Source of the DNA: Promethearchaeota archaeon
GTDB lineage: Archaea > Asgardarchaeota > Lokiarchaeia > Sigyniarchaeales > SOKP01
Assembly (NCBI GenBank): GCA_030606485.1
Contig: JAUWGH010000001.1
Span: 390,001-422,000, forward strand
Length of the DNA stretch: 32,000 bases
Reading direction: 5' to 3'
In this document: piece after piece, positions 1-32,000 of the stretch
How the letters are laid out: each line of letters begins with the position of its first letter
Numbering within the stretch: position 1 is the stretch's first letter
Notes under the pieces: model-generated
Database searches by the model: none
Seen by the model: the letters and a program-made list of their open reading frames with translations, nothing else
Told to the model about the DNA's origin: nothing
Position numbers and translations under genes: made by a program

Positions 1-3000
1 CGTTTAAGTTCCTCTTGTTCAACCTTTTTTAACCGAACCTTTCTAATCAATTCATGAATCGAATCAACAGGATATTGTATTTTACTTAAAAGAAGCACGG
101 CATTTCGATATGCATTAATTGCCGGCTCAAAATTCCCGATTTTAGTTAAATCCTCCGCCTCATCCAATATCTTAAATGCTTCCTCTCGTTTTTGCTCACG
201 ATATACTTCTATCTTCTCGCGTGTTTCGATTGCTATCTTCTTCACCATCATCTTCTTTCTCTCAAGTGCTAACTGACGAGTAATCTCTTTTTGAAATGTT
301 ACCTCCTCTAATTGCCTATGAATTTGAAGTTTTCTTTCTTTCTGTAATAACTCCTTTTGTTCCTTTTGTTTCAATTTAATTTTCTGTATCATTTCTTTAA
401 CAGCATGTGAGGGAAATTGAATTTCACTTAAAATAATATCAGCTTGACGATAAAGCTCTAAAGCTTCATCAAAATTTCCACGTTTTGTTAAAATCTCCGC
501 CTTATTCATTACATCAAATGCTTCAGTACGCTTTTTTTCTCGATAAGCAAGTAATCGTTCTTTAGTCTGAGCCGCGATTTTTTTAACAAACATTTTTTTC
601 TTTTCTAACTCAATATTATGAGTAATTCTTGCTTGAAATTCTCTTTCTTCACCTTCATGTTTAACCGCTAATTCCTTCTGTCGCTGTAGCTCTTGTGTGA
701 TTTCAATCTTACGTCTATTTAAATTTTCTAGTGTATCTTGGATTACCCTAAGATAAGGGCCTTTCCAGCCAATTTGATTAAAAATTTCTATTGCCGATTT
801 GTGAATTCTAATAGCCTCATCTAAATTTCCTTCCCTTATATGCTCATCTGAACTCTCGAGCATTTTCAATGCTTCTTCTTGTTTCTTTAATTTCTGCTCT
901 GATAAGATTTTTTTCTGTTCCTGAATATATTGCGCAAATTTAACTTTCTCTTCTTGCTGACTTTTGATTAAAGCAATTTCATGCTGAAATTCTCTTGCTT
1001 CTTGTTCCCTTTTGATAGATTCCTCTCTTACTATTTGTTCCCACAGTTCTTTATCTTTCTTTTGTTGCTCAAGTTTGCGTATTGCACCTTGAATAAGTGC
1101 CAACTCTTCTGTCCACCGAATTTCAGCAAAAATAATCGATGCCTCATGATATTTTTCAATCGTAGCATCTAAATCCCCCCTCATTATTAACATCTTTGCT
1201 GCATCTAAAATATCAAAGGCCTCATTTTTTCGATTTTCACGATATTTTACTTCAGCTTCGTATTCTCTTAGTCTAATTTGACCCTCTCTTAACTTTTCAC
1301 GCTCCGTCCTTAATTCTTCAGCAATCATATCCTGAAATTCTTGGGTTTCTTGCTCACGTTTCAATAATACCTCTCGAGTCTTCTGTTCCCATAATTCTCT
1401 TTCCTTTTTTTTATTCTCAAGTTCTCGAATCGCATTCTGAATAAGTGCTAACTCATCATCCCATTGAATTTCTGCAAAAATAATCGAAGCTACTTCATAT
1501 TTTTCTATAATATCATCAAAATCTCCACTGATTGTCAATTTTTGAGCTTCATCTAAGATCTTAAATGCTTTCTCCTTTTGTTTTTCGCGATATTTCACTT
1601 CTTTTTCATATTCTCTAACTGTAATCTCTTTTTCTCTTAACTTCTCACGTTCCTCTCTTAATTGTTCAGAAATTTTATCCTGAAACTCTTTCGTTTCCTT
1701 TTCTCTTTTTAAAGCATCTTCTCTTTCTTTTAATTTTAGAAGTCTCATTTCTTTCTTTCTGTTTTCAAGATCTCGAATAGCACCTTGAATGAGTGATAAT
1801 TCATCAGTCCATTGAATTTCTGCAAAAATCATTAATGCCATGTAATATTTTTCTATGGCAATATCAAAATCCCCGCGTAATGTGTATTCTTCTGCCTCAT
1901 CTAATATTTTAAAAGATTCAACCTTTCTTTTCTTCCGATATTCAATCTCTGTTTCATATTCCCTAATTTCGATCTTTTTCTTCTCTAACTTTTCCCTTTC
2001 TTTTCGAATCTGTTCGGCAATTGTTTTTCGAAATTTTTCATCTTCCTTAGCACGCTTAACTTTTAATTCCTTGGCTGTCTCCTCATTTTTCAAAAATTCA
2101 CTATATTTATGTTGAACCGTGTTTATTGTAGTTTCAATTGTCGCAATTTGATCAGCCCAACCTATCTCTCTAAAAATATCACGTGCCTTTTTATAATTTT
2201 TAATTGCCTTTTCATAATTGCCTTTTCTTACCAATTCATCGCCTTCATTTATTACATTAAAAGCTTTTTTCTCTTTTGCGTGATCCATTTCCCGTATCTT
2301 TTCAATCTCTTTTTGTTTTAGGGAAATTCCTTCTACTTCCTGTTCTGCTTGAATCTTTTCATGCTTTTTTATAATTTCTTGGAATTTTAAATACTCTTTC
2401 TCTCGAGCTTTTTTCTCCTCGAGAACTTTCTGTTCATTTTCTTGTCTCCTTCTAATATCCGAGATGAACTTATATATTGGCTTAACATAATCAGTCCATC
2501 CTATTGATTGTAATAAATCTATTGCTCCATTAAAATTCTCGATTGCCCCATCATATTGTTTCTCTCGTTCAAATCGTTTTGCAATATCAATCATCTTAAA
2601 AGCTTCTTCTTGAATATGCTCTTCATGCTTTTTTCGTTCTTCAAACTCTACTATTTTCTGCTTTTTAACTTCAATATCTGCTTTTGCTTTTACTGAGATT
2701 TCAGGGATTGGTGCAGTAACCGCTGCTTCTTTTGCTTTAATTTGCTGTGCTTGCAACTTTTTATAATTTACTCTATCTTTATTTATCTTATCAATGATTT
2801 TATTAATATGAACTAATTGATCAGCCCACCCAATAGATTCTAAGAGCTGCCCAGCCATACCATACTTTTCCATGGCTTCATTAAATTCCTTGACCTTTAT
2901 TAAACGCTCACCCTCATCCATCAATTCAAATGCTTTCTTTTGAACCTCATCCTCACGTCTTTTCTTCGCTTCATATTTCATTATTACTTTTGATTGTACG

Positions 3001-3890
3001 TCCATAATTTCTGGAACTATTTCTTTCTGAGGAGCTGTTTCCGAAGTAACGGGTTGGGGTGTAGCTCTAGCAGCTTGCTCAACTTTCTGACCTTCCACTT
3101 TTTCAAATGCTACCCTCTGCCTTTCAACCGAATCAATATCGCTATATAAATAAGACAAATTCTCGTCAGTCCATCCAATAGATCTCAATAGATCTAAAGC
3201 TTCGAGATATTTTGATTTTGCTACATCAAAATTCTTTTCCTCTAAAAGCTTTTTACCCATATCAATCGATTCAAAAGCACGATTTTGTATATCCTCTTCC
3301 CTTCGTTTTTGAGTCTCAAATTCCATTCGTAATTTACTCCGTTTATCAAGTCCTGCAGGAACAATTGTTGTTTCCGGAGCTCCAAAAGACTTTTCAACCT
3401 TGATGGGTGCCTGTTCAGCCCGTAATGCTCTTTGATGGGCCATAATTTGTTGCTGTTTGAAGATATCCACTAATTTTTCAAGTTTTAACTTGATTTGTCC
3501 TAATAAACTCTCATCCCATTTAGCCTGTTCCAATAACTTTATAGCTGATGAATAACAAGATATGGCTTCTTGATAACGACCATCGACTTCTAAAGACTTT
3601 GCTTTATCCAAAAAGTGGAATGCTTCATCTCTTAGACCAGAAAGCTCAACTTCGATTTCTTTTCGCTGCAAAGCCTTCTCTTGTTGAGTCACTTTAGTTA
3701 AATGTACTATTCGCTCATTTATATCATCAATATGAAGCGATAATAATCCACTTAGTTTTAATAATTCAACAGCCTTTGAATATTCTTCAATAGCTTTTGC
3801 CCAATTTTGCTGAGACTCATATTTTTCGGCTAAGTCTAAATGCCGAACTGCCTCCTCGGCTAATTGCTGGGGTGATGGTTTCTCGAACAT
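1..3890 (-). CDS. Giant MIT/TPR-like helical repeat protein, >1296 aa, 3'-truncated by window edge (absent from ORF track)
   Basis: ATG at 3890 preceded by AGGT. Translates MFEKPSPQQLAEEAVRHLDLAEKYESQQNWAKAIEEYSKAVELL... No stop found in the stretches translated by hand (1-600, most of 600-1930, 2280-2400, 2640-2760, 2880-3120, 3300-3890); still open at position 3. The motif AF..LD.A..L...G.F..AI..Y..A..IF..I.W recurs in one frame. Confidence 0.9.
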   Translation of the reverse strand, partial: MFEKPSPQQLAEEAVRHLDLAEKYESQQNWAKAIEEYSKAVELLKLSGLLSLHIDDINERIVHLTKVTQQEKALQRKEIEVELSGLRDEAFHFLDKAKSLEVDGRYQEAISCYSSAIKLLEQAKWDESLLGQIKLKLEKLVDIFKQQQIMAHQRALRAEQAPIKVEKSFGAPETTIVPAGLDKRSKLRMEFETQKRREEDIQNRAFESIDMGKKLLEEKNFDVAKSKYLEALDLLRSIGWTDENLSYLYSDIDSVERQRVAFEKVEGQKVEQAARATPQPVTSETAPQKEIVPEIMDVQSKVIMKYEAKKRREDEVQKKAFELMDEGERLIKVKEFNEAMEKYGMAGQLLESIGWADQLVHINKIIDKINKDRVNYKKLQAQQIKAKEAAVTAPIPEISVKAKADIEVKKQKIVEFEERKKHEEHIQEEAFKMIDIAKRFEREKQYDGAIENFNGAIDLLQSIGWTDYVKPIYKFISDIRRRQENEQKVLEEKKAREKEYLKFQEIIKKHEKIQAEQEVEGISLKQKEIEKIREMDHAKEKKAFNVINEGDELVRKGNYEKAIKNYKKARDIFREIGWADQIATIETTINTVQHKYSEFLKNEETAKELKVKRAKEDEKFRKTIAEQIRKEREKLEKKKIEIREYETEIEYRKKRKVESFKILDEAEEYTLRGDFDIAIEKYYMALMIFAEIQWTDELSLIQGAIRDLENRKKEMRLLKLKEREDALKREKETKEFQDKISEQLREEREKLREKEITVREYEKEVKYREKQKEKAFKILDEAQKLTISGDFDDIIEKYEVASIIFAEIQWDDELALIQNAIRELENKKKERELWEQKTREVLLKREQETQEFQDMIAEELRTEREKLREGQIRLREYEAEVKYRENRKNEAFDILDAAKMLIMRGDLDATIEKYHEASIIFAEIRWTEELALIQGAIRKLEQQKKDKELWEQIVREESIKREQEAREFQHEIALIKSQQEEKVKFAQYIQEQKKILSEQKLKKQEEALKMLESSDEHIREGNLDEAIRIHKSAIEIFNQIGWKGPYLRVIQDTLENLNRRKIEITQELQRQKELAVKHEGEEREFQARITHNIELEKKKMFVKKIAAQTKERLLAYREKKRTEAFDVMNKAEILTKRGNFDEALELYRQADIILSEIQFPSHAVKEMIQKIKLKQKEQKELLQKERKLQIHRQLEEVTFQKEITRQLALERKKMMVKKIAIETREKIEVYREQKREEAFKILDEAEDLTKIGNFEPAINAYRNAVLLLSKIQYPVDSIHELIRKVRLKKVEQEELK
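72..3750 (-). repeat. Intragenic tandem repeat, about 12 units of mostly 110-117 aa (exact 348-nt period in the core)
   Basis: Conserved Trp (or equivalent) codons at plus positions 72, 414, 765, 1113, 1461, 1809, 2157, 2496, 2826, 3171, 3516, ~3744. Spacing 765-2157 is exactly 348 nt; the most N-terminal spacing is only 228 nt. Confidence 0.85.
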
Positions 3891-26954: not shown

Positions 26955-27485
26955 ATGTCTTCATATAAACTTAAGGTTCTTTTATGCGGTGCTGCCGCAG
27001 TGGGAAAGACCGCATTAGTTCAGCGTTTTATTAAGAATCGATTCGCTACTAACTATAAACTAACTGTTGGTGTGGATATTTTAACAAAGGACGTTAATTA
27101 TGAAGGAGACGAGATTGCAACGTTAAGTATATGGGATATTGGGGGACAACAAAGATTTGAATTCATTAGAAGCACGTTTTATAAGGGTGCAGCGGGAGTT
27201 CTTCTAGTTTTCGATCTCTCAAGGGCGCAGACTTATGCCGAAATCCGAAAATGGTTAGCGGAGATTCGACAATTTGCTGGAGAACATATACCTTTTGTTC
27301 TAGTAGGAAATAAAGTTGATTTAATTGAGGATGTTGGTGAAGTTATTGACAGGGAGGAAGCAAAAAGATTTGGGGAATCAGAAAATTCGATTTACATTGA
27401 AACATCTGCGAAGACTGGAGTGCATGTTGAGGAGTCTTTTGGTGAATTGACCAGACGAATTATTAAATCTCGTTCAGGCCAATAA
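26955..27485 (+). CDS. Rab-like small GTPase (no prenylation motif)
   Basis: G1 GAAAVGKT, G2 YKLTVG, G3 WDIGGQ, RFEFIRSTFYKGA, G4 NKVD, G5 ETSAK; ends SRSGQ. Confidence 0.95.
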   Translation: MSSYKLKVLLCGAAAVGKTALVQRFIKNRFATNYKLTVGVDILTKDVNYEGDEIATLSIWDIGGQQRFEFIRSTFYKGAAGVLLVFDLSRAQTYAEIRKWLAEIRQFAGEHIPFVLVGNKVDLIEDVGEVIDREEAKRFGESENSIYIETSAKTGVHVEESFGELTRRIIKSRSGQ

Positions 27486-28517: not shown

Positions 28518-29921
28518 CTAATGAAATTCTTCATGGAGTGTATTTACAGCTTTTTCGATATCTTCCTTACTAATAACTAATGATATATTTAATCCTTCGG
28601 AGGATTGAGAAATTGATTTAACATTGATATCATTTGAACTAAGAGCATTAAAGATGCGTGCTTTAATTTTTGTATCAAGAACTTGTAATCCGATGACTGC
28701 AAGTATTCCGACATACTCAATTTTGATATCAAAGAAATTTTTAAAGAAATCATTTTCTTTAATTAAATTTACTGCCTTTTCTCCTTCATTCATATTTACA
28801 ATAAATGTGGTATTAATTTCGCTGGAGCTTTGAGCGACTAAAGAAACATTTATTTTATTATCTCCCACAATGTTAAATATTTTGGCAAGAACACCGGGAA
28901 CTTCAACCATACTTCCTGAAGAAACAGTTATCATCGCAACTTCTTCGACAGTAGAGATTCCTTTTATGTTTGATTTATCGGTTTTTTCAGATATTATAGT
29001 AAATTGGGATTTTTCGAGAGGTTTATTAAAATTTCTAATCTCTAAGGGAATTTTATATGGTTCTATTGCTTCCAGACATTTCGGGTGCAGAATTTTTGCG
29101 CCGAAAAATGCCATTTCTTTTGCTTCGTTATAATCTAGAATTTTCACTAATTGTGGCTCGCAATTATTTATATATTTTGGGTCAGAAACAAGCAGTCCAT
29201 CAACATTCTTCCAGAGAATAACTTTGATATCTTTAAATTGACAAGTATTATAAATTACATGGGCGAGAATTGTCGCTGTATAATCAGATCCACCTCGACC
29301 TAGCGTAGTTATGTAACCAATTTTATTTCTACCAATAAACCCGGTAATACAAAATATTGTAATGTCATCTGGATTATCCAAGAGTGGGACCATTTTCTTC
29401 CTAATTCGGTTTTGTGTATATTTATAAAGTGGAAAAGCATTCCCGAAATTATCATCAGTTATTATTAATTCAGTTGAGGGGATAAATACTACATTATATC
29501 CGTTGATTTTGAGATATAGATGTAAAATATAAGTAGAGAAAATCTCTCCAAAACTTAGAACATAATCTTGATAATATAGCTCAAATCCAAACTCATTAAT
29601 GTCAATTAACGCATCTTCGAGTTCGCTAATTTTTTTATCAATATATTCTTTAGCGACATTTGCATATTCTTCATTATCACCAAAAATTTCATCGATTATG
29701 TCATAATTTTTTTTTTCGATAAAGGCAATATTTTTATCAATATCAATTCCCTTTTCTGCTTTATTGCCCATATCTAATAATAAATCAGTGATCCCTTTAA
29801 ATGCGGATGCTACATAAACTTTTTTATAATCTTTATAAATTTCCGTAATATTCAGAATGTTTTTAAATGACTCTTCGTCTTGTAAGCAGCTACCACCAAA
29901 TTTCATTATAACAATTGCCAT
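28518..29921 (-). CDS. lysC: Aspartate kinase with two ACT domains
   Basis: MKFGGSC, VASAFKGITD, SFGE, TTLGRGGSDYTA, EMAFFGAKILHP; ACT segments GVLAKIFNIV and ARIFNALS. Confidence 0.95.
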   Translation of the reverse strand: MAIVIMKFGGSCLQDEESFKNILNITEIYKDYKKVYVASAFKGITDLLLDMGNKAEKGIDIDKNIAFIEKKNYDIIDEIFGDNEEYANVAKEYIDKKISELEDALIDINEFGFELYYQDYVLSFGEIFSTYILHLYLKINGYNVVFIPSTELIITDDNFGNAFPLYKYTQNRIRKKMVPLLDNPDDITIFCITGFIGRNKIGYITTLGRGGSDYTATILAHVIYNTCQFKDIKVILWKNVDGLLVSDPKYINNCEPQLVKILDYNEAKEMAFFGAKILHPKCLEAIEPYKIPLEIRNFNKPLEKSQFTIISEKTDKSNIKGISTVEEVAMITVSSGSMVEVPGVLAKIFNIVGDNKINVSLVAQSSSEINTTFIVNMNEGEKAVNLIKENDFFKNFFDIKIEYVGILAVIGLQVLDTKIKARIFNALSSNDINVKSISQSSEGLNISLVISKEDIEKAVNTLHEEFH

Positions 29922-30451: not shown

Positions 30452-32000
30452 TTATACACCAAAGCTATTTAAAAGATTCTGAATATCATCAATTTGTTTT
30501 GATATGTTAGCTTTTATGGCTTTTATCTTTTGTGATTTCTTATTAAACTCTTCTGAGGTTATTTCTCCTGAAATTTCTTTTATATCAAGGTCGAGTTCCA
30601 TTTTAGAAATATTTGCAAATTTAATCTTTAAATCCATTAAGGTTTTTTCAAGTTCATTTTTTTGTGTGCCTTCTTGATCACTTACGGTTGTTGTTGGGGG
30701 TTTGGTTGGGACTGGTGTTGGTTGAGTTAAAGGCTTCGGAATAGAGGGTTGAGGTGGAGCTTTCGGTGGGGCGGGTGGTTGTGGTGGTTTTTTAGAATCA
30801 GGTAAAGGCTGTTGATATGGTGATTTAGCTTTAGTAGTGTATGGTTTTGATTTTTGTTGAGGTTGAGGTTCTTCTTGTTTTATAGCACTAAATGGACTAA
30901 TTGTTAATGAGGGTTTAGGTCCGGTGGGTTTTGCGGATAAGATATTTGTTGGACGAGGTTTAATTTTAAAATCTTCGAGATTAATTGTTAATTTTGGTTG
31001 TGTGGATTGTGATTTAGGTGAAGTTGGCTTTGGAGTAGCTTTAGGTTCAGGTATAGTTGTTTTTTTTATTGCTGGTGGTTTAGCAATCGCTGGTTTCGGA
31101 GCTGTTTTAGGTTCAAGCACAGTTGGGATTTTTTTTGCTGAAGGTTTAGAAATCGCTGGTTTTGGAGGGGCTTTAGGTTCAGGTACAGTTGATTTTTTTA
31201 TTGCTGGTGGTTTAGGAATTGCTGGTTTTGTAGCAGCTTTAGGTTCAGGTGATGTTGATTCAACCGATGCAGGTTGAGCTTCTTCTTTTTGTTTAACAAT
31301 TTCAACTGGGGTTGTTTCCATCTTTATTAAAATTTCTTTAATCTTCTGGGCTTTTTCATTAAATTCATTTCCTAAACTATCATCACCTAAATCAAGACAT
31401 AAATCTGCAATTTTTTCAAATAATATTAAAGCATTTTGGAAATTGCCTTCATTAAGTGATAATTCAGCTTCTTGTAATAATTTATCTCTCTCAATCAATG
31501 GTTTCAATAAGGGACTTACTTCTGCACTCATTTCAAGGATATCAGCAATTATTGTAATCATTTTATCACGATTTTCACTTCTATTTGCAATCATCTTATA
31601 AGTTTTTAAACCTAAAATGTTCTCAATTTCTGATACAGGAAGTGCAGGTGAAAGATCTTGTTTGTTTCCAATTATTGCAGTATGTGCATGGGGTGCTTCA
31701 TCTTTTATTAAATCGAGGAAAAATCTACTTTTTTCTATATTTTCTAAAGTGGAATCTGTAATGAGAAGAACTGCATCGCTACCTTTAACAAAATTATTCC
31801 ATAAATAGCTAAACTGTTCTTGTCCTGCAAAATCCCACAAATGAAAGTGTAATTTCCCTATCTTAATAGTTGCTATATCTCCAGTTATAGTAGGAATATG
31901 TTCCATCGGTATTTCTTCAGCCCTAATTAATCTAGTTATTGTTGTTTTTCCAACACCAGAAAATCCTACGAGTGAAATTTTGGGGCGTAAATTTTTATGA
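30452..32000 (-). CDS. Multidomain Arf/Rab-like GTPase (5'-truncated): GTPase, MIT/TPR-like hairpin, Pro/Lys-rich region, coiled-coil/SHOCT-like tail
   Basis: Frame is open 31 codons upstream of the tracked ATG to the window edge and contains the P-loop GFSGVGKT (31943-31966); PTI, WDFAGQ and NKQD follow. Confidence 0.92.
   Translation of the reverse strand, partial: HKNLRPKISLVGFSGVGKTTITRLIRAEEIPMEHIPTITGDIATIKIGKLHFHLWDFAGQEQFSYLWNNFVKGSDAVLLITDSTLENIEKSRFFLDLIKDEAPHAHTAIIGNKQDLSPALPVSEIENILGLKTYKMIANRSENRDKMITIIADILEMSAEVSPLLKPLIERDKLLQEAELSLNEGNFQNALILFEKIADLCLDLGDDSLGNEFNEKAQKIKEILIKMETTPVEIVKQKEEAQPASVESTSPEPKAATKPAIPKPPAIKKSTVPEPKAPPKPAISKPSAKKIPTVLEPKTAPKPAIAKPPAIKKTTIPEPKATPKPTSPKSQSTQPKLTINLEDFKIKPRPTNILSAKPTGPKPSLTISPFSAIKQEEPQPQQKSKPYTTKAKSPYQQPLPDSKKPPQPPAPPKAPPQPSIPKPLTQPTPVPTKPPTTTVSDQEGTQKNELEKTLMDLKIKFANISKMELDLDIKEISGEITSEEFNKKSQKIKAIKANISKQIDDIQNLLNSFGV
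31020..31249 (-). repeat. 66-nt (22-aa) tandem repeat, 3 full copies plus 1 partial
   Basis: TTAGGTTC at 31041, 31107, 31173 and 31239; PEPKAATKPAIPKPPAIKKSTV / PEPKAPPKPAISKPSAKKIPTV / LEPKTAPKPAIAKPPAIKKTTI / PEPKATPKP. Confidence 0.92.

What the first reader, a model, noticed from the sequence alone, without database searches (positions are those of the whole stretch)
30452..32000. Small GTPase fused to a MIT/TPR-like hairpin, a long proline-rich arm and a SHOCT-like tail
Seen: the P-loop lies upstream of the tracked start. After the G domain comes a helical module (31328-31489, KLLQEAELSLNEGNFQNALILFEKIADLCLDLG) resembling the units of the giant protein at 1..3890. About 210 aa of Pro/Lys/Thr-rich sequence with many PxxP follow, then a coiled coil with ISGEITSEEFNKK (SHOCT-like). 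Known: eukaryotic trafficking proteins use proline-rich regions as adaptor-docking sites. Inference: a GTPase-scaffold fusion that tethers partners or oligomerises, an architecture unlike single-domain Arf/Rab.
Basis: partly seen in the sequence, partly recalled or inferred. Interest (0 to 1): 0.65.

Follow-up and report, generated by a model that had tools for sequence, protein, structure and literature searches.

The report
Longin–ArfL GTPase with tethered tail
This is the larger part of a conserved Asgard-archaeal small GTPase of a known class (longin domain plus "ArfL" GTPase), extended by a long flexible proline/lysine-rich arm and a private helical end piece; it sits next to a probable regulator gene, which makes it one of the few testable GTPase–partner pairs in these archaea.

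Summary
Window 30452–32000 (minus strand) is the 3' four-fifths of one intact gene that runs on to window position 32368 (635–638 aa). Its order of parts is:
- a longin-fold domain (VIA Z 14.6, Foldseek TM 0.76 to VAMP7 longin);
- a G domain with all GTPase motifs invariant;
- a three-helix TPR-like module;
- a 213-aa disordered arm (P 25%, K 16%) holding 3.4 copies of a 22-aa repeat and one conserved 40-aa motif;
- a C-terminal helical hairpin (pLDDT about 90).

An orthologue (TKJ20170.1) is listed as "ArfL" in a published table, and longin–ArfL fusions have been known since 2016, so the core is a known kind. The tail was not described in the papers I searched. It is conserved in all 25 genomes sampled from the organism's family and in a closed genome of a sister family. 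Its end piece was found in no other protein among 1.84 billion representatives.

MIT similarity is not supported. TPR and SHOCT similarity are below threshold; the SHOCT likeness covers 16 residues at the hairpin turn. A probable Roadblock-like 164-aa gene lies directly upstream in 10 of 10 loci.

Unexpectedly, most orthologues start at AUU, 5–6 nt after a strong Shine–Dalgarno site. The scan had already noted this same gene from the adjacent window.

The parts
31994..32000 (-). Last residues of the N-terminal longin domain (aa 1-125). The rest lies beyond the window end, up to window position 32368 (L001:3095-3469).
   Evidence: AlphaFold2 of aa 1-126: pLDDT 83.6, pTM 0.80, topology bb-a-bbb-a. 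Foldseek VAMP7 longin E 4.8e-6, TM 0.76. VIA-align Z 14.6 (rmsd 2.2, 117 aligned) to VAMP7 and Z 13.7 to Sec22.
31514..31993 (-). Small-GTPase G domain (aa 126-285), ArfL class. P-loop at 31940-31966; also PTITGD, WDFAGQ and NKQD.
   Evidence: Pfam Arf 73.8 bits against cut-off 22.3. G1-G4 residues are invariant in 50 homologues. Orthologue TKJ20170.1 is labelled ArfL in Table S3 of 10.1101/2024.02.28.582541.
31313..31513 (-). Three-helix module (aa 286-352), TPR-like hairpin plus a third helix.
   Evidence: Helices 289-306, 310-326 and 330-352. 78% mean column identity among orthologues. TPR_8 sub-threshold in 25 of 31 orthologues. Weak TPR/Sel1 hits in PDB, E 0.015-0.04.
30998..31312 (-). 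First part of the disordered Pro/Lys-rich arm (aa 353-457).
   Evidence: pLDDT below 50. Composition. Length 61-221 aa and sequence not conserved in orthologues.
31025..31250 (-). 3.4 tandem copies of a 66-nt (22-aa) repeat inside the arm, unit (S/T)T(V/I)PEPKAxxKPAIxKPPAIKK.
   Evidence: Tandem Repeats Finder: period 66, 80% matches, score 305. Protein period 22. Other lineages carry unrelated repeats of their own.
30878..30997 (-). Conserved 40-aa linear motif in the middle of the arm (aa 458-497). Family consensus: LNPEDFMVKxRPK...KLKTSPF.
   Evidence: Column identity about 0.73 against about 0.35 in the flanks; alignment. Its profile hits only this gene in the genome, E 7e-16. Short helix 464-467 with a local pLDDT rise.
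30674..30877 (-). Second part of the disordered arm (aa 498-565), including PPQPPAPPKAPPQP.
   Evidence: pLDDT 28-45. Length 0-131 aa in orthologues.
30455..30673 (-). C-terminal helical hairpin (aa 566-638). The stop codon follows at 30452-30454.
   Evidence: Helices 566-600 and 605-636, pLDDT about 90. 65% mean column identity. The profile finds 87 proteins in 1.84 billion; all but the two weakest (4669 and 1583 aa, not re-detected) carry it at their C-terminus, and every hit long enough has the same domain order.
30524..30571 (-). SHOCT-like turn motif SGEITSEEFNKKSQKI (aa 600-615).
   Evidence: hhalign against four true SHOCT domains: probability 70.8%, E 3.8e-5, 16 columns. Pfam SHOCT 13.3 bits against cut-off 27.

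Best explanation
The stretch encodes most of a 635-638-aa ArfL-class small GTPase of a Lokiarchaeia-type Asgard archaeon.

Shown here:
- An N-terminal longin fold joined to a G domain that keeps every nucleotide-binding and catalytic motif, including the switch-II Gln. It should therefore bind and hydrolyse GTP.
- A conserved three-helix, TPR-like cap.
- A roughly 200-aa disordered Pro/Lys-rich arm. Only its disorder, its composition and one central 40-aa motif are kept in evolution.
- A family-private C-terminal helical hairpin.
- A conserved upstream neighbour gene (164 aa) that is probably Roadblock-like.

Inferred mechanism:
- The longin domain and the Roadblock-like neighbour form the platform that sets the nucleotide state. 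Roadblock and longin platforms do this for MglA, Rag, Rab and SR-beta GTPases.
- The arm is a flexible spacer of up to about 60 nm.
- The central motif and the end hairpin are the docking and self-association sites. The hairpin's first helix has a broad hydrophobic face that one hairpin cannot bury.
- Together these couple the GTP switch to an assembly held at a distance.

A conserved weak AUU start behind a strong Shine-Dalgarno site suggests that the amount of the GTPase is kept low.
For: - Full gene recovered.
- Longin fold. A 474-aa paralogue gives a near-threshold Pfam Longin hit, 23.5 against 26.2 bits.
- G1-G4 residues invariant in 50 homologues.
- ArfL label of an orthologue.
- Disorder and helices from AlphaFold2.
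- Conservation profile along the protein.
- Arm properties across 120 homologues.
- The tail is present in 25 of 25 genomes sampled from the family and in a closed genome of a sister family.
- The end hairpin occurs only in this architecture and only once in this genome.
- The partner gene lies directly upstream on the same strand in 10 of 10 loci examined: the own locus, 8 public contigs and the closed genome.
- Partner against 11 Roadblock ORFs of this genome: hhalign probability 66.6%, E 5.4e-5, 112 columns. Its best PDB profile hit is a Roadblock/LC7 protein, E 0.077. One source names a homologue Roadblock/LAMTOR2.
- AUU start with Shine-Dalgarno site.
- Contigs of one RNA library cover aa 33-404 of a 97-98% identical relative. 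This is weak, because DNA carry-over is not excluded.
Against: - No binding, oligomerisation or GTPase activity was shown.
- The Roadblock assignment of the partner is below the usual significance levels, and no structure of it could be predicted here.
- AlphaFold2 gave low confidence for the P-loop and switch I (aa 138-174). It showed no docking of the central motif onto the folded domains.
- The central motif is less conserved in this genus than in the rest of the family, and the profile does not detect it in some divergent members.
- A related 771-aa protein in a third family has another tail and no partner gene beside it.
Confidence: 0.55

Rival explanations
1. The tail has no specific role. 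The protein works as a plain longin-GTPase, and the arm and end piece are tolerated low-complexity growth.
For: The arm's sequence, length and repeats turn over fast. About 350-aa paralogues without a tail exist in sister genomes.
Against: The end hairpin (65% column identity) and the central motif are under clear constraint. They are kept in 25 of 25 family genomes and in a sister family.
Confidence: 0.15
2. One reading: the PxxP-rich arm is itself the working part, a docking strip for SH3- or profilin-like adaptors as in eukaryotic trafficking proteins.
For: 14 PxxP and one PPQPPAPPKAPPQP run. Pro content is kept at a median of 22% in orthologues.
Against: No individual PxxP site or poly-Pro run aligns between lineages, and repeats arose independently. 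From memory, not tested here: lokiarchaeal profilins were reported not to bind poly-proline.
Confidence: 0.12
3. The arm is a polybasic membrane- or nucleic-acid-binding region that anchors the GTPase.
For: Net charge is +22 in this protein, with K at 16%.
Against: Net charge of the arm ranges from -13 to +26 in orthologues, median +5. Charge is therefore not the conserved property.
Confidence: 0.08
4. It is a true Arf/SR-beta-type switch: a cis-fused SRX-SR-beta-like receptor or a membrane-budding Arf.
For: Best sequence matches among solved structures are Asgard ArfR (8oun, 2e-17) and Arf1 (6e-16). Arf-like motifs IPTITG, LW in switch II and NKQD are present. SRX is among the fold matches, Z 10-11.
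Against: [quoted passage not shown] There is no N-terminal amphipathic helix. The longin domain matches VAMP7 and Sec22 better than SRX.
Confidence: 0.05

Closest known systems
ArfL-group longin-GTPase fusions of Lokiarchaeia (Klinger et al. 2016, as cited in PMC4917890; Table S3 of 10.1101/2024.02.28.582541; MK-D1 survey in PMC10933270)
   Same: N-terminal longin domain fused to an Arf-like G domain. An orthologue (TKJ20170.1) is itself listed as ArfL.
   Different: The papers I read list or model the GTPase and longin parts only. The TPR-like cap, the long arm with its motif, the end hairpin, the conserved partner gene and the AUU start are not described there.
MglA-MglB, Rag-Ragulator, TRAPP and Mon1-Ccz1: Roadblock or longin platforms that regulate small GTPases
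   Same: A small GTPase combined with longin and probably Roadblock modules. Fold matches include these proteins at Z 9-11.
   Different: Here the longin is in cis and N-terminal. The Roadblock-like protein is only inferred, and no GAP or GEF activity is known.
Longin SNAREs VAMP7 and Sec22b
   Same: Best structural match of the N-terminal domain. They also have a longin domain at one end and a long helical segment at the other.
   Different: No SNARE motif and no membrane anchor. A GTPase lies between the two ends. Sequence identity is 8-17%.
SHOCT domain (Pfam PF09851)
   Same: G-x-I-T-x-E-E-[FL]-x-x-K-K turn motif near a C-terminus.
   Different: Below the Pfam cut-off. The motif is embedded in a 70-aa hairpin, and no SHOCT protein was retrieved with the module's profile.
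Dynamin-type GTPases with a C-terminal proline-rich domain (analogy from general knowledge)
   Same: A GTPase followed by a disordered Pro-rich region that carries short docking motifs.
   Different: Unrelated G domain and size. No SH3 partners are known in these archaea. This is an analogy only.

Membership tests
Ras-superfamily small GTPase | G1 GxxxxGK[ST], switch-I Thr, G3 DxxGQ and G4 NKxD all present | tested here: met
   GFSGVGKTT, PTITGD, WDFAGQ and NKQD are invariant in 50 homologues. Pfam Arf 73.8, Roc 58.1 and Ras 51.7 bits, all above their cut-offs.
ArfL group (Asgard-only Arf-like GTPases) | Placement in the ArfL clade by phylogeny | tested here: met
   By proxy only. TKJ20170.1 shares a 90%-identity cluster with P0042, which is 50% identical to this protein over 98% of its length. 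It is labelled 'ArfL, tree' in Table S3 of 10.1101/2024.02.28.582541. No tree was built here.
Eukaryotic-type Arf family / ArfR | N-terminal amphipathic helix directly before the G domain | tested here: not met
   The G domain is preceded by a 125-aa longin domain.
Eukaryotic-type Arf family / ArfR | Interswitch toggle on GTP binding | not testable with these tools
   Needs structures in both nucleotide states.
Longin domain | Fold b1-b2-a1-b3-b4-b5-a2(-a3) | tested here: met
   One search gives the topology. VIA Z 14.6 (rmsd 2.2, 117 aligned) to VAMP7 and Z 13.7 to Sec22. Foldseek E 4.8e-6.
Longin domain | Pfam Longin PF13774 above its cut-off | tested here: not met
   No Pfam hit for aa 1-135. 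A paralogue reaches 23.5 against 26.2 bits.
TPR | Pfam TPR model above its cut-off | tested here: inconclusive
   TPR_8 in 25 of 31 orthologues at E<=1, best 7.6e-4; this protein has no hit. PDB profile E 0.015-0.04 to Sel1/TPR proteins.
MIT domain | Pfam MIT above its cut-off | tested here: not met
   1 of 31 orthologues, E 0.052. The fold of this module alone was not searched.
SHOCT | Pfam PF09851 at or above 27 bits | tested here: not met
   13.3 bits. No hit to this gene in a whole-genome scan at E<=0.001.
SHOCT | Profile-profile similarity to true SHOCT domains | tested here: inconclusive
   hhalign probability 70.8%, E 3.8e-5, but only 16 columns.
CdvA-like coiled coil (PF18822) | Pfam score at or above 30 bits | tested here: not met
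   20.7-22.2 bits. 5 of 31 orthologues hit at E<=1.
Roadblock/LC7 (upstream partner gene) | Significant sequence or fold match to Roadblock | tested here: inconclusive
   No Pfam hit. PDB profile hit 7yh1_D at E 0.077. hhalign against the genome's own Roadblock ORFs: probability 66.6% over 112 columns. Atlas leads: Robl_LC7 in 13-41% of members of neighbouring clusters.

The most novel reading that the evidence does not exclude
A two-gene module conserved across this order: a Roadblock-like regulator followed by a longin-ArfL GTPase that starts at AUU. The GTPase's private docking motif and self-associating end hairpin sit on a roughly 60-nm flexible arm. That would be a prokaryotic GTPase-controlled tether or scaffold, with its dosage throttled by a conserved near-cognate start codon.
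Probability: 0.2. Interest if true: 0.75.

Novelty: new variant of a known kind. Interest (0 to 1): 0.48.

Why it matters
Asgard archaea encode dozens of small GTPases whose roles and regulators are unknown. PMC10933270 notes that GTPase genes in the cultured MK-D1 rarely sit beside Roadblock, longin or TRAPPC3 genes, so partners cannot be guessed from gene order.

This locus is a conserved exception:
- The GTPase has a nearly invariant G domain.
- A probable Roadblock-like neighbour is always beside it.
- Its tail is found nowhere else.
- The pair is also present in a closed genome of the same order.

That gives a defined pair and defined tail pieces for biochemical tests.

The AUU start has a practical side. 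80 of the 120 best database homologues lack the first longin strand, and in the loci examined the called starts are downstream codons.

Tried and rejected
- Complex prediction of the full-length GTPase with the upstream protein, GTP and Mg gave no verdict (score 0.00). It counts neither for nor against binding.
- Profile searches of solved-structure sequences found nothing meaningful for the N-terminal domain or the end hairpin.
- Pfam gave nothing for the N-terminal domain or the partner.
- A family profile of the three-helix module did not find the window's giant MIT/TPR protein. A related 1279-aa protein scored only E 0.025.
- The Pfam SHOCT model found nothing in this genome.
- RNA-library contigs did not cover the partner gene or the tail, so nothing can be said about co-transcription.
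- Literature searches found no description of the tail and nothing on AUU starts in archaea.
- Reading the NCBI source labels (Thor-, Hermod-, Hodarchaeota) as wide phyletic spread was dropped. The genome scan by GTDB places the full-length form in one family plus neighbouring families of the same order.

Full report
**What is there.** The finding lies on the minus strand. The open frame ending at 30452-30454 runs off the window end. The window is contig C10:390001-422000 of a 3.75-Mb, 13-contig genome. In the genome the frame continues to window position 32368 (L001:1553-3469) and gives 638 aa from an in-frame GTG.
- The P-loop (31940-31966) is upstream of the first ATG.
- The helical module is at 31385-31483.
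- The Pro/Lys/Thr-rich stretch is 213 aa: P 25%, K 16%, T 11%, 14 PxxP, net charge +22.
- The C-terminus carries ISGEITSEEFNKK.

**Anatomy.** AlphaFold2 with 50 homologues gives six parts:
- a bb-a-bbb-a-a domain (aa 7-115);
- a G domain (130-277);
- three helices (289-306, 310-326, 330-352);
- disorder from 353 to 565, apart from one short helix at 464-467;
- a helical hairpin (566-600 and 605-636, pLDDT about 90) with GEIT at the turn.

The N-terminal domain folded alone has pLDDT 83.6 and pTM 0.80. It is a longin fold:
- Foldseek to VAMP7 longin: E 4.8e-6, TM 0.76.
- VIA-align: Z 14.6 (rmsd 2.2, 117 aligned) to VAMP7 and Z 13.7 to Sec22.
- Sigma-adaptins, TRAPP longins, SRX and a solved lokiarchaeal longin score Z 10-12.

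The G domain keeps GFSGVGKTT, PTITGD, WDFAGQ and NKQD. All are invariant in 50 homologues, so an active GTPase is expected.

**Class.** Pfam scores Arf best (73.8 bits). The nearest solved sequences are Asgard ArfR (2e-17) and Arf1 (6e-16). However, TKJ20170.1 is labelled "ArfL, tree" in Table S3 of 10.1101/2024.02.28.582541. It shares a 90%-identity cluster with P0042, a full-length homologue that is 50% identical to this protein. That paper and PMC11914678 state that ArfL occurs only in Asgard archaea and is not directly related to eukaryotic Arf. Longin domains fused to lokiarchaeal Arf-like GTPases have been reported since 2016 (PMC4917890) and were modelled for MK-D1 (PMC10933270). The core is therefore a known kind.

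**The tail.**
- *Conservation along the protein.* Among 120 homologues, column identity is 0.95-0.99 in the G domain and 0.7-0.9 in the three-helix module. It is about 0.35 in the arm, 0.73 in an island at aa 458-497, and 0.56-0.83 in the end hairpin.
- *The arm.* It is always Pro-rich (median 22%) and Lys-rich (15%). Its two parts vary in length from 61 to 221 aa and from 0 to 131 aa. Its net charge varies from -13 to +26, and different lineages grew different tandem repeats. Here there are 3.4 copies of a 22-aa unit at 31025-31250. The conserved properties are disorder and composition, not PxxP sites or charge.
- *The end hairpin.* Its profile finds only 87 proteins among 1.84 billion representatives. 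All but the two weakest (4669 and 1583 aa, not re-detected by my profiles) carry it at their C-terminus. Every hit long enough shows the same order longin-G-helices-(island)-hairpin; the short ones look like fragments. In this genome the island and the hairpin occur only in this gene.

**Named similarities.**
- *MIT* is not supported.
- *TPR* is sub-threshold but recurrent: TPR_8 in 25 of 31 orthologues, and weak TPR/Sel1 hits in PDB.
- *The giant MIT/TPR protein at 3-3890* shares only a generic xLLxEAExxxxxGNFxxA pattern. The module's family profile does not find it. The same profile finds two real copies in a 309-aa ORF at C2:184757-185683.
- *SHOCT* scores 13.3 bits against a cut-off of 27; 11 of 31 orthologues hit at E<=1. 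hhalign against four true SHOCT domains gives 70.8% probability over 16 columns. This is a shared turn motif, not shown membership.
- *CdvA-like* hits are below the cut-off.

**Distribution.**
- A GTDB-based scan found the full-length form in 25 of 25 genomes sampled from the organism's family (six genera). Of the 125 genomes of other families, 18 gave a match at that threshold, all of them roughly 285-300-aa longin-GTPases at 32-41% identity.
- A targeted search then found it in two genomes of a sister family. One is a closed 4.36-Mb genome that keeps both the partner gene and the end hairpin.
- A third family has a 771-aa relative with a different tail.
- Source names of homologues (Lokiarchaeota, Ca. 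Harpocratesius) and NCBI taxonomy point to Lokiarchaeia/Promethearchaeales.

**Neighbour.**
- A 163-177-aa gene lies directly upstream on the same strand in the own locus, in 8 public contigs and in the closed genome, 10 of 10 loci.
- It has 482 homologues and no Pfam family. One source names a homologue Roadblock/LAMTOR2.
- Its best PDB profile hit is a Roadblock/LC7 protein, E 0.077, in register from the first helix.
- hhalign against the 11 Roadblock ORFs of this genome gives 66.6% probability, E 5.4e-5, over 112 columns.
- Protein-atlas neighbours carry Robl_LC7 or MAPKK1_Int in 11-41% of members.
- I rate a Roadblock fold at about 0.8. This is not proven.
- Aspartate kinase follows in 7 of 8 public contigs, and an opposite-strand 175-aa Ras-like GTPase in 6 of 8. 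Both also lie downstream in the window, where a dodecin gene stands between the GTPase and the kinase.

**Start codon (found while recovering the N-terminus).**
- In 23 unique orthologous loci the first longin strand begins at a position-homologous codon. It is ATT in 15, ATA in 3, ATC in 1 and ATG in 4.
- The next eight codons are invariant or near-invariant in amino acid but vary synonymously, so they are translated.
- The two codons before it are not conserved. The third codon before it is TGA in 16 of 23 loci and lies inside a conserved GGTGA, 5-6 nt upstream. This GGTGA pairs with the genome's 16S 3' end, GGATCACCTCC.
- In the 10 complete loci checked, no ATG, GTG or TTG lies between that stop and the conserved codon in six; two have ATG at that position and two have the in-frame GTG. 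The 400-nt windows of the other loci show the same pattern.
- In this genome the in-frame GTG is part of that Shine-Dalgarno site. The likelier start is therefore the ATT at window 32357-32359, giving 635 aa.
- 80 of the 120 best homologues lack the first strand, and in the loci examined the called starts are downstream codons.

**Mechanism.** Shown: the architecture, intact GTPase motifs, the conservation pattern, the private tail and the conserved neighbour. Inferred: the longin domain and the Roadblock-like protein act as the regulatory platform, the arm as a spacer, the island and hairpin as docking and self-association sites, and the weak start as a dosage limit. Nothing was shown about binding.

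**Expression.** The evidence is limited to contigs of one RNA library that cover aa 33-404 of a 97-98% identical relative.

**Verdict.** The feature is real and conserved. It is a known class with an undescribed, family-private extension and a conserved partner. The reading was overstated on MIT, on SHOCT membership and on adaptor docking.

Noticed in passing
Beyond the window end: window positions 32357-32380 (L001:3458-3481, minus strand), and L003-L010, L019, L034-L050: Conserved near-cognate start. In 23 unique orthologous loci the gene begins at ATT (15), ATA (3), ATC (1) or ATG (4), 5-6 nt after a conserved GGTGA Shine-Dalgarno site that usually holds an in-frame TGA. The downstream codons vary synonymously, so they are translated. 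80 of the 120 best database homologues lack the first longin strand.
   Followed up: yes
Beyond the window end: window positions 32428-32922 (L001:3529-4023, minus strand): A 164-aa gene directly upstream of the GTPase is conserved in this position in 10 of 10 loci. It is probably Roadblock-like with a C-terminal helical extension. The longer 196-aa reading from a GTG is not supported by orthologues.
   Followed up: partly
G000 C1:101971-103395 (L022:972-2393, minus strand): A 474-aa paralogue with a similar layout: longin, Arf-like domain, helical hairpin, short Pro/Lys arm and a C-terminal helical part. It is 29% identical to this protein over aa 4-324. Its switch II reads WDFQLED and its switch I lacks PTITG, so it may be a pseudo-GTPase.
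   Followed up: partly
G000 C2:184757-185683 (L021:758-1672, minus strand): A 305-aa protein of no known family carries two clear copies of the GTPase's three-helix module (profile E 4e-11).
   Followed up: no
window 26955-27485 (+) and 28518-29921 (-): A 176-aa Ras-family GTPase (Pfam Ras 4.5e-48) and an aspartate kinase lie downstream. The same order, longin-GTPase then aspartate kinase then an opposite-strand Ras-like GTPase, recurs in 6 of 8 public contigs.
   Followed up: partly
L003, L005-L010 (upstream of the partner gene): In 7 of 8 public contigs the pair is preceded by an opposite-strand AbpE_bact-family gene (about 260 aa) and a 650-760-aa protein without a Pfam family. In this genome a HEPN-like ORF lies there instead, so the neighbourhood was rearranged.
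   Followed up: no
whole genome: An earlier scan note calls this organism Hodarchaeales-type. The homologue sources named Lokiarchaeota or Ca. Harpocratesius, the 'Lokiarchaeales' label of TKJ20170.1 and NCBI taxonomy point instead to Lokiarchaeia/Promethearchaeales.
   Followed up: partly
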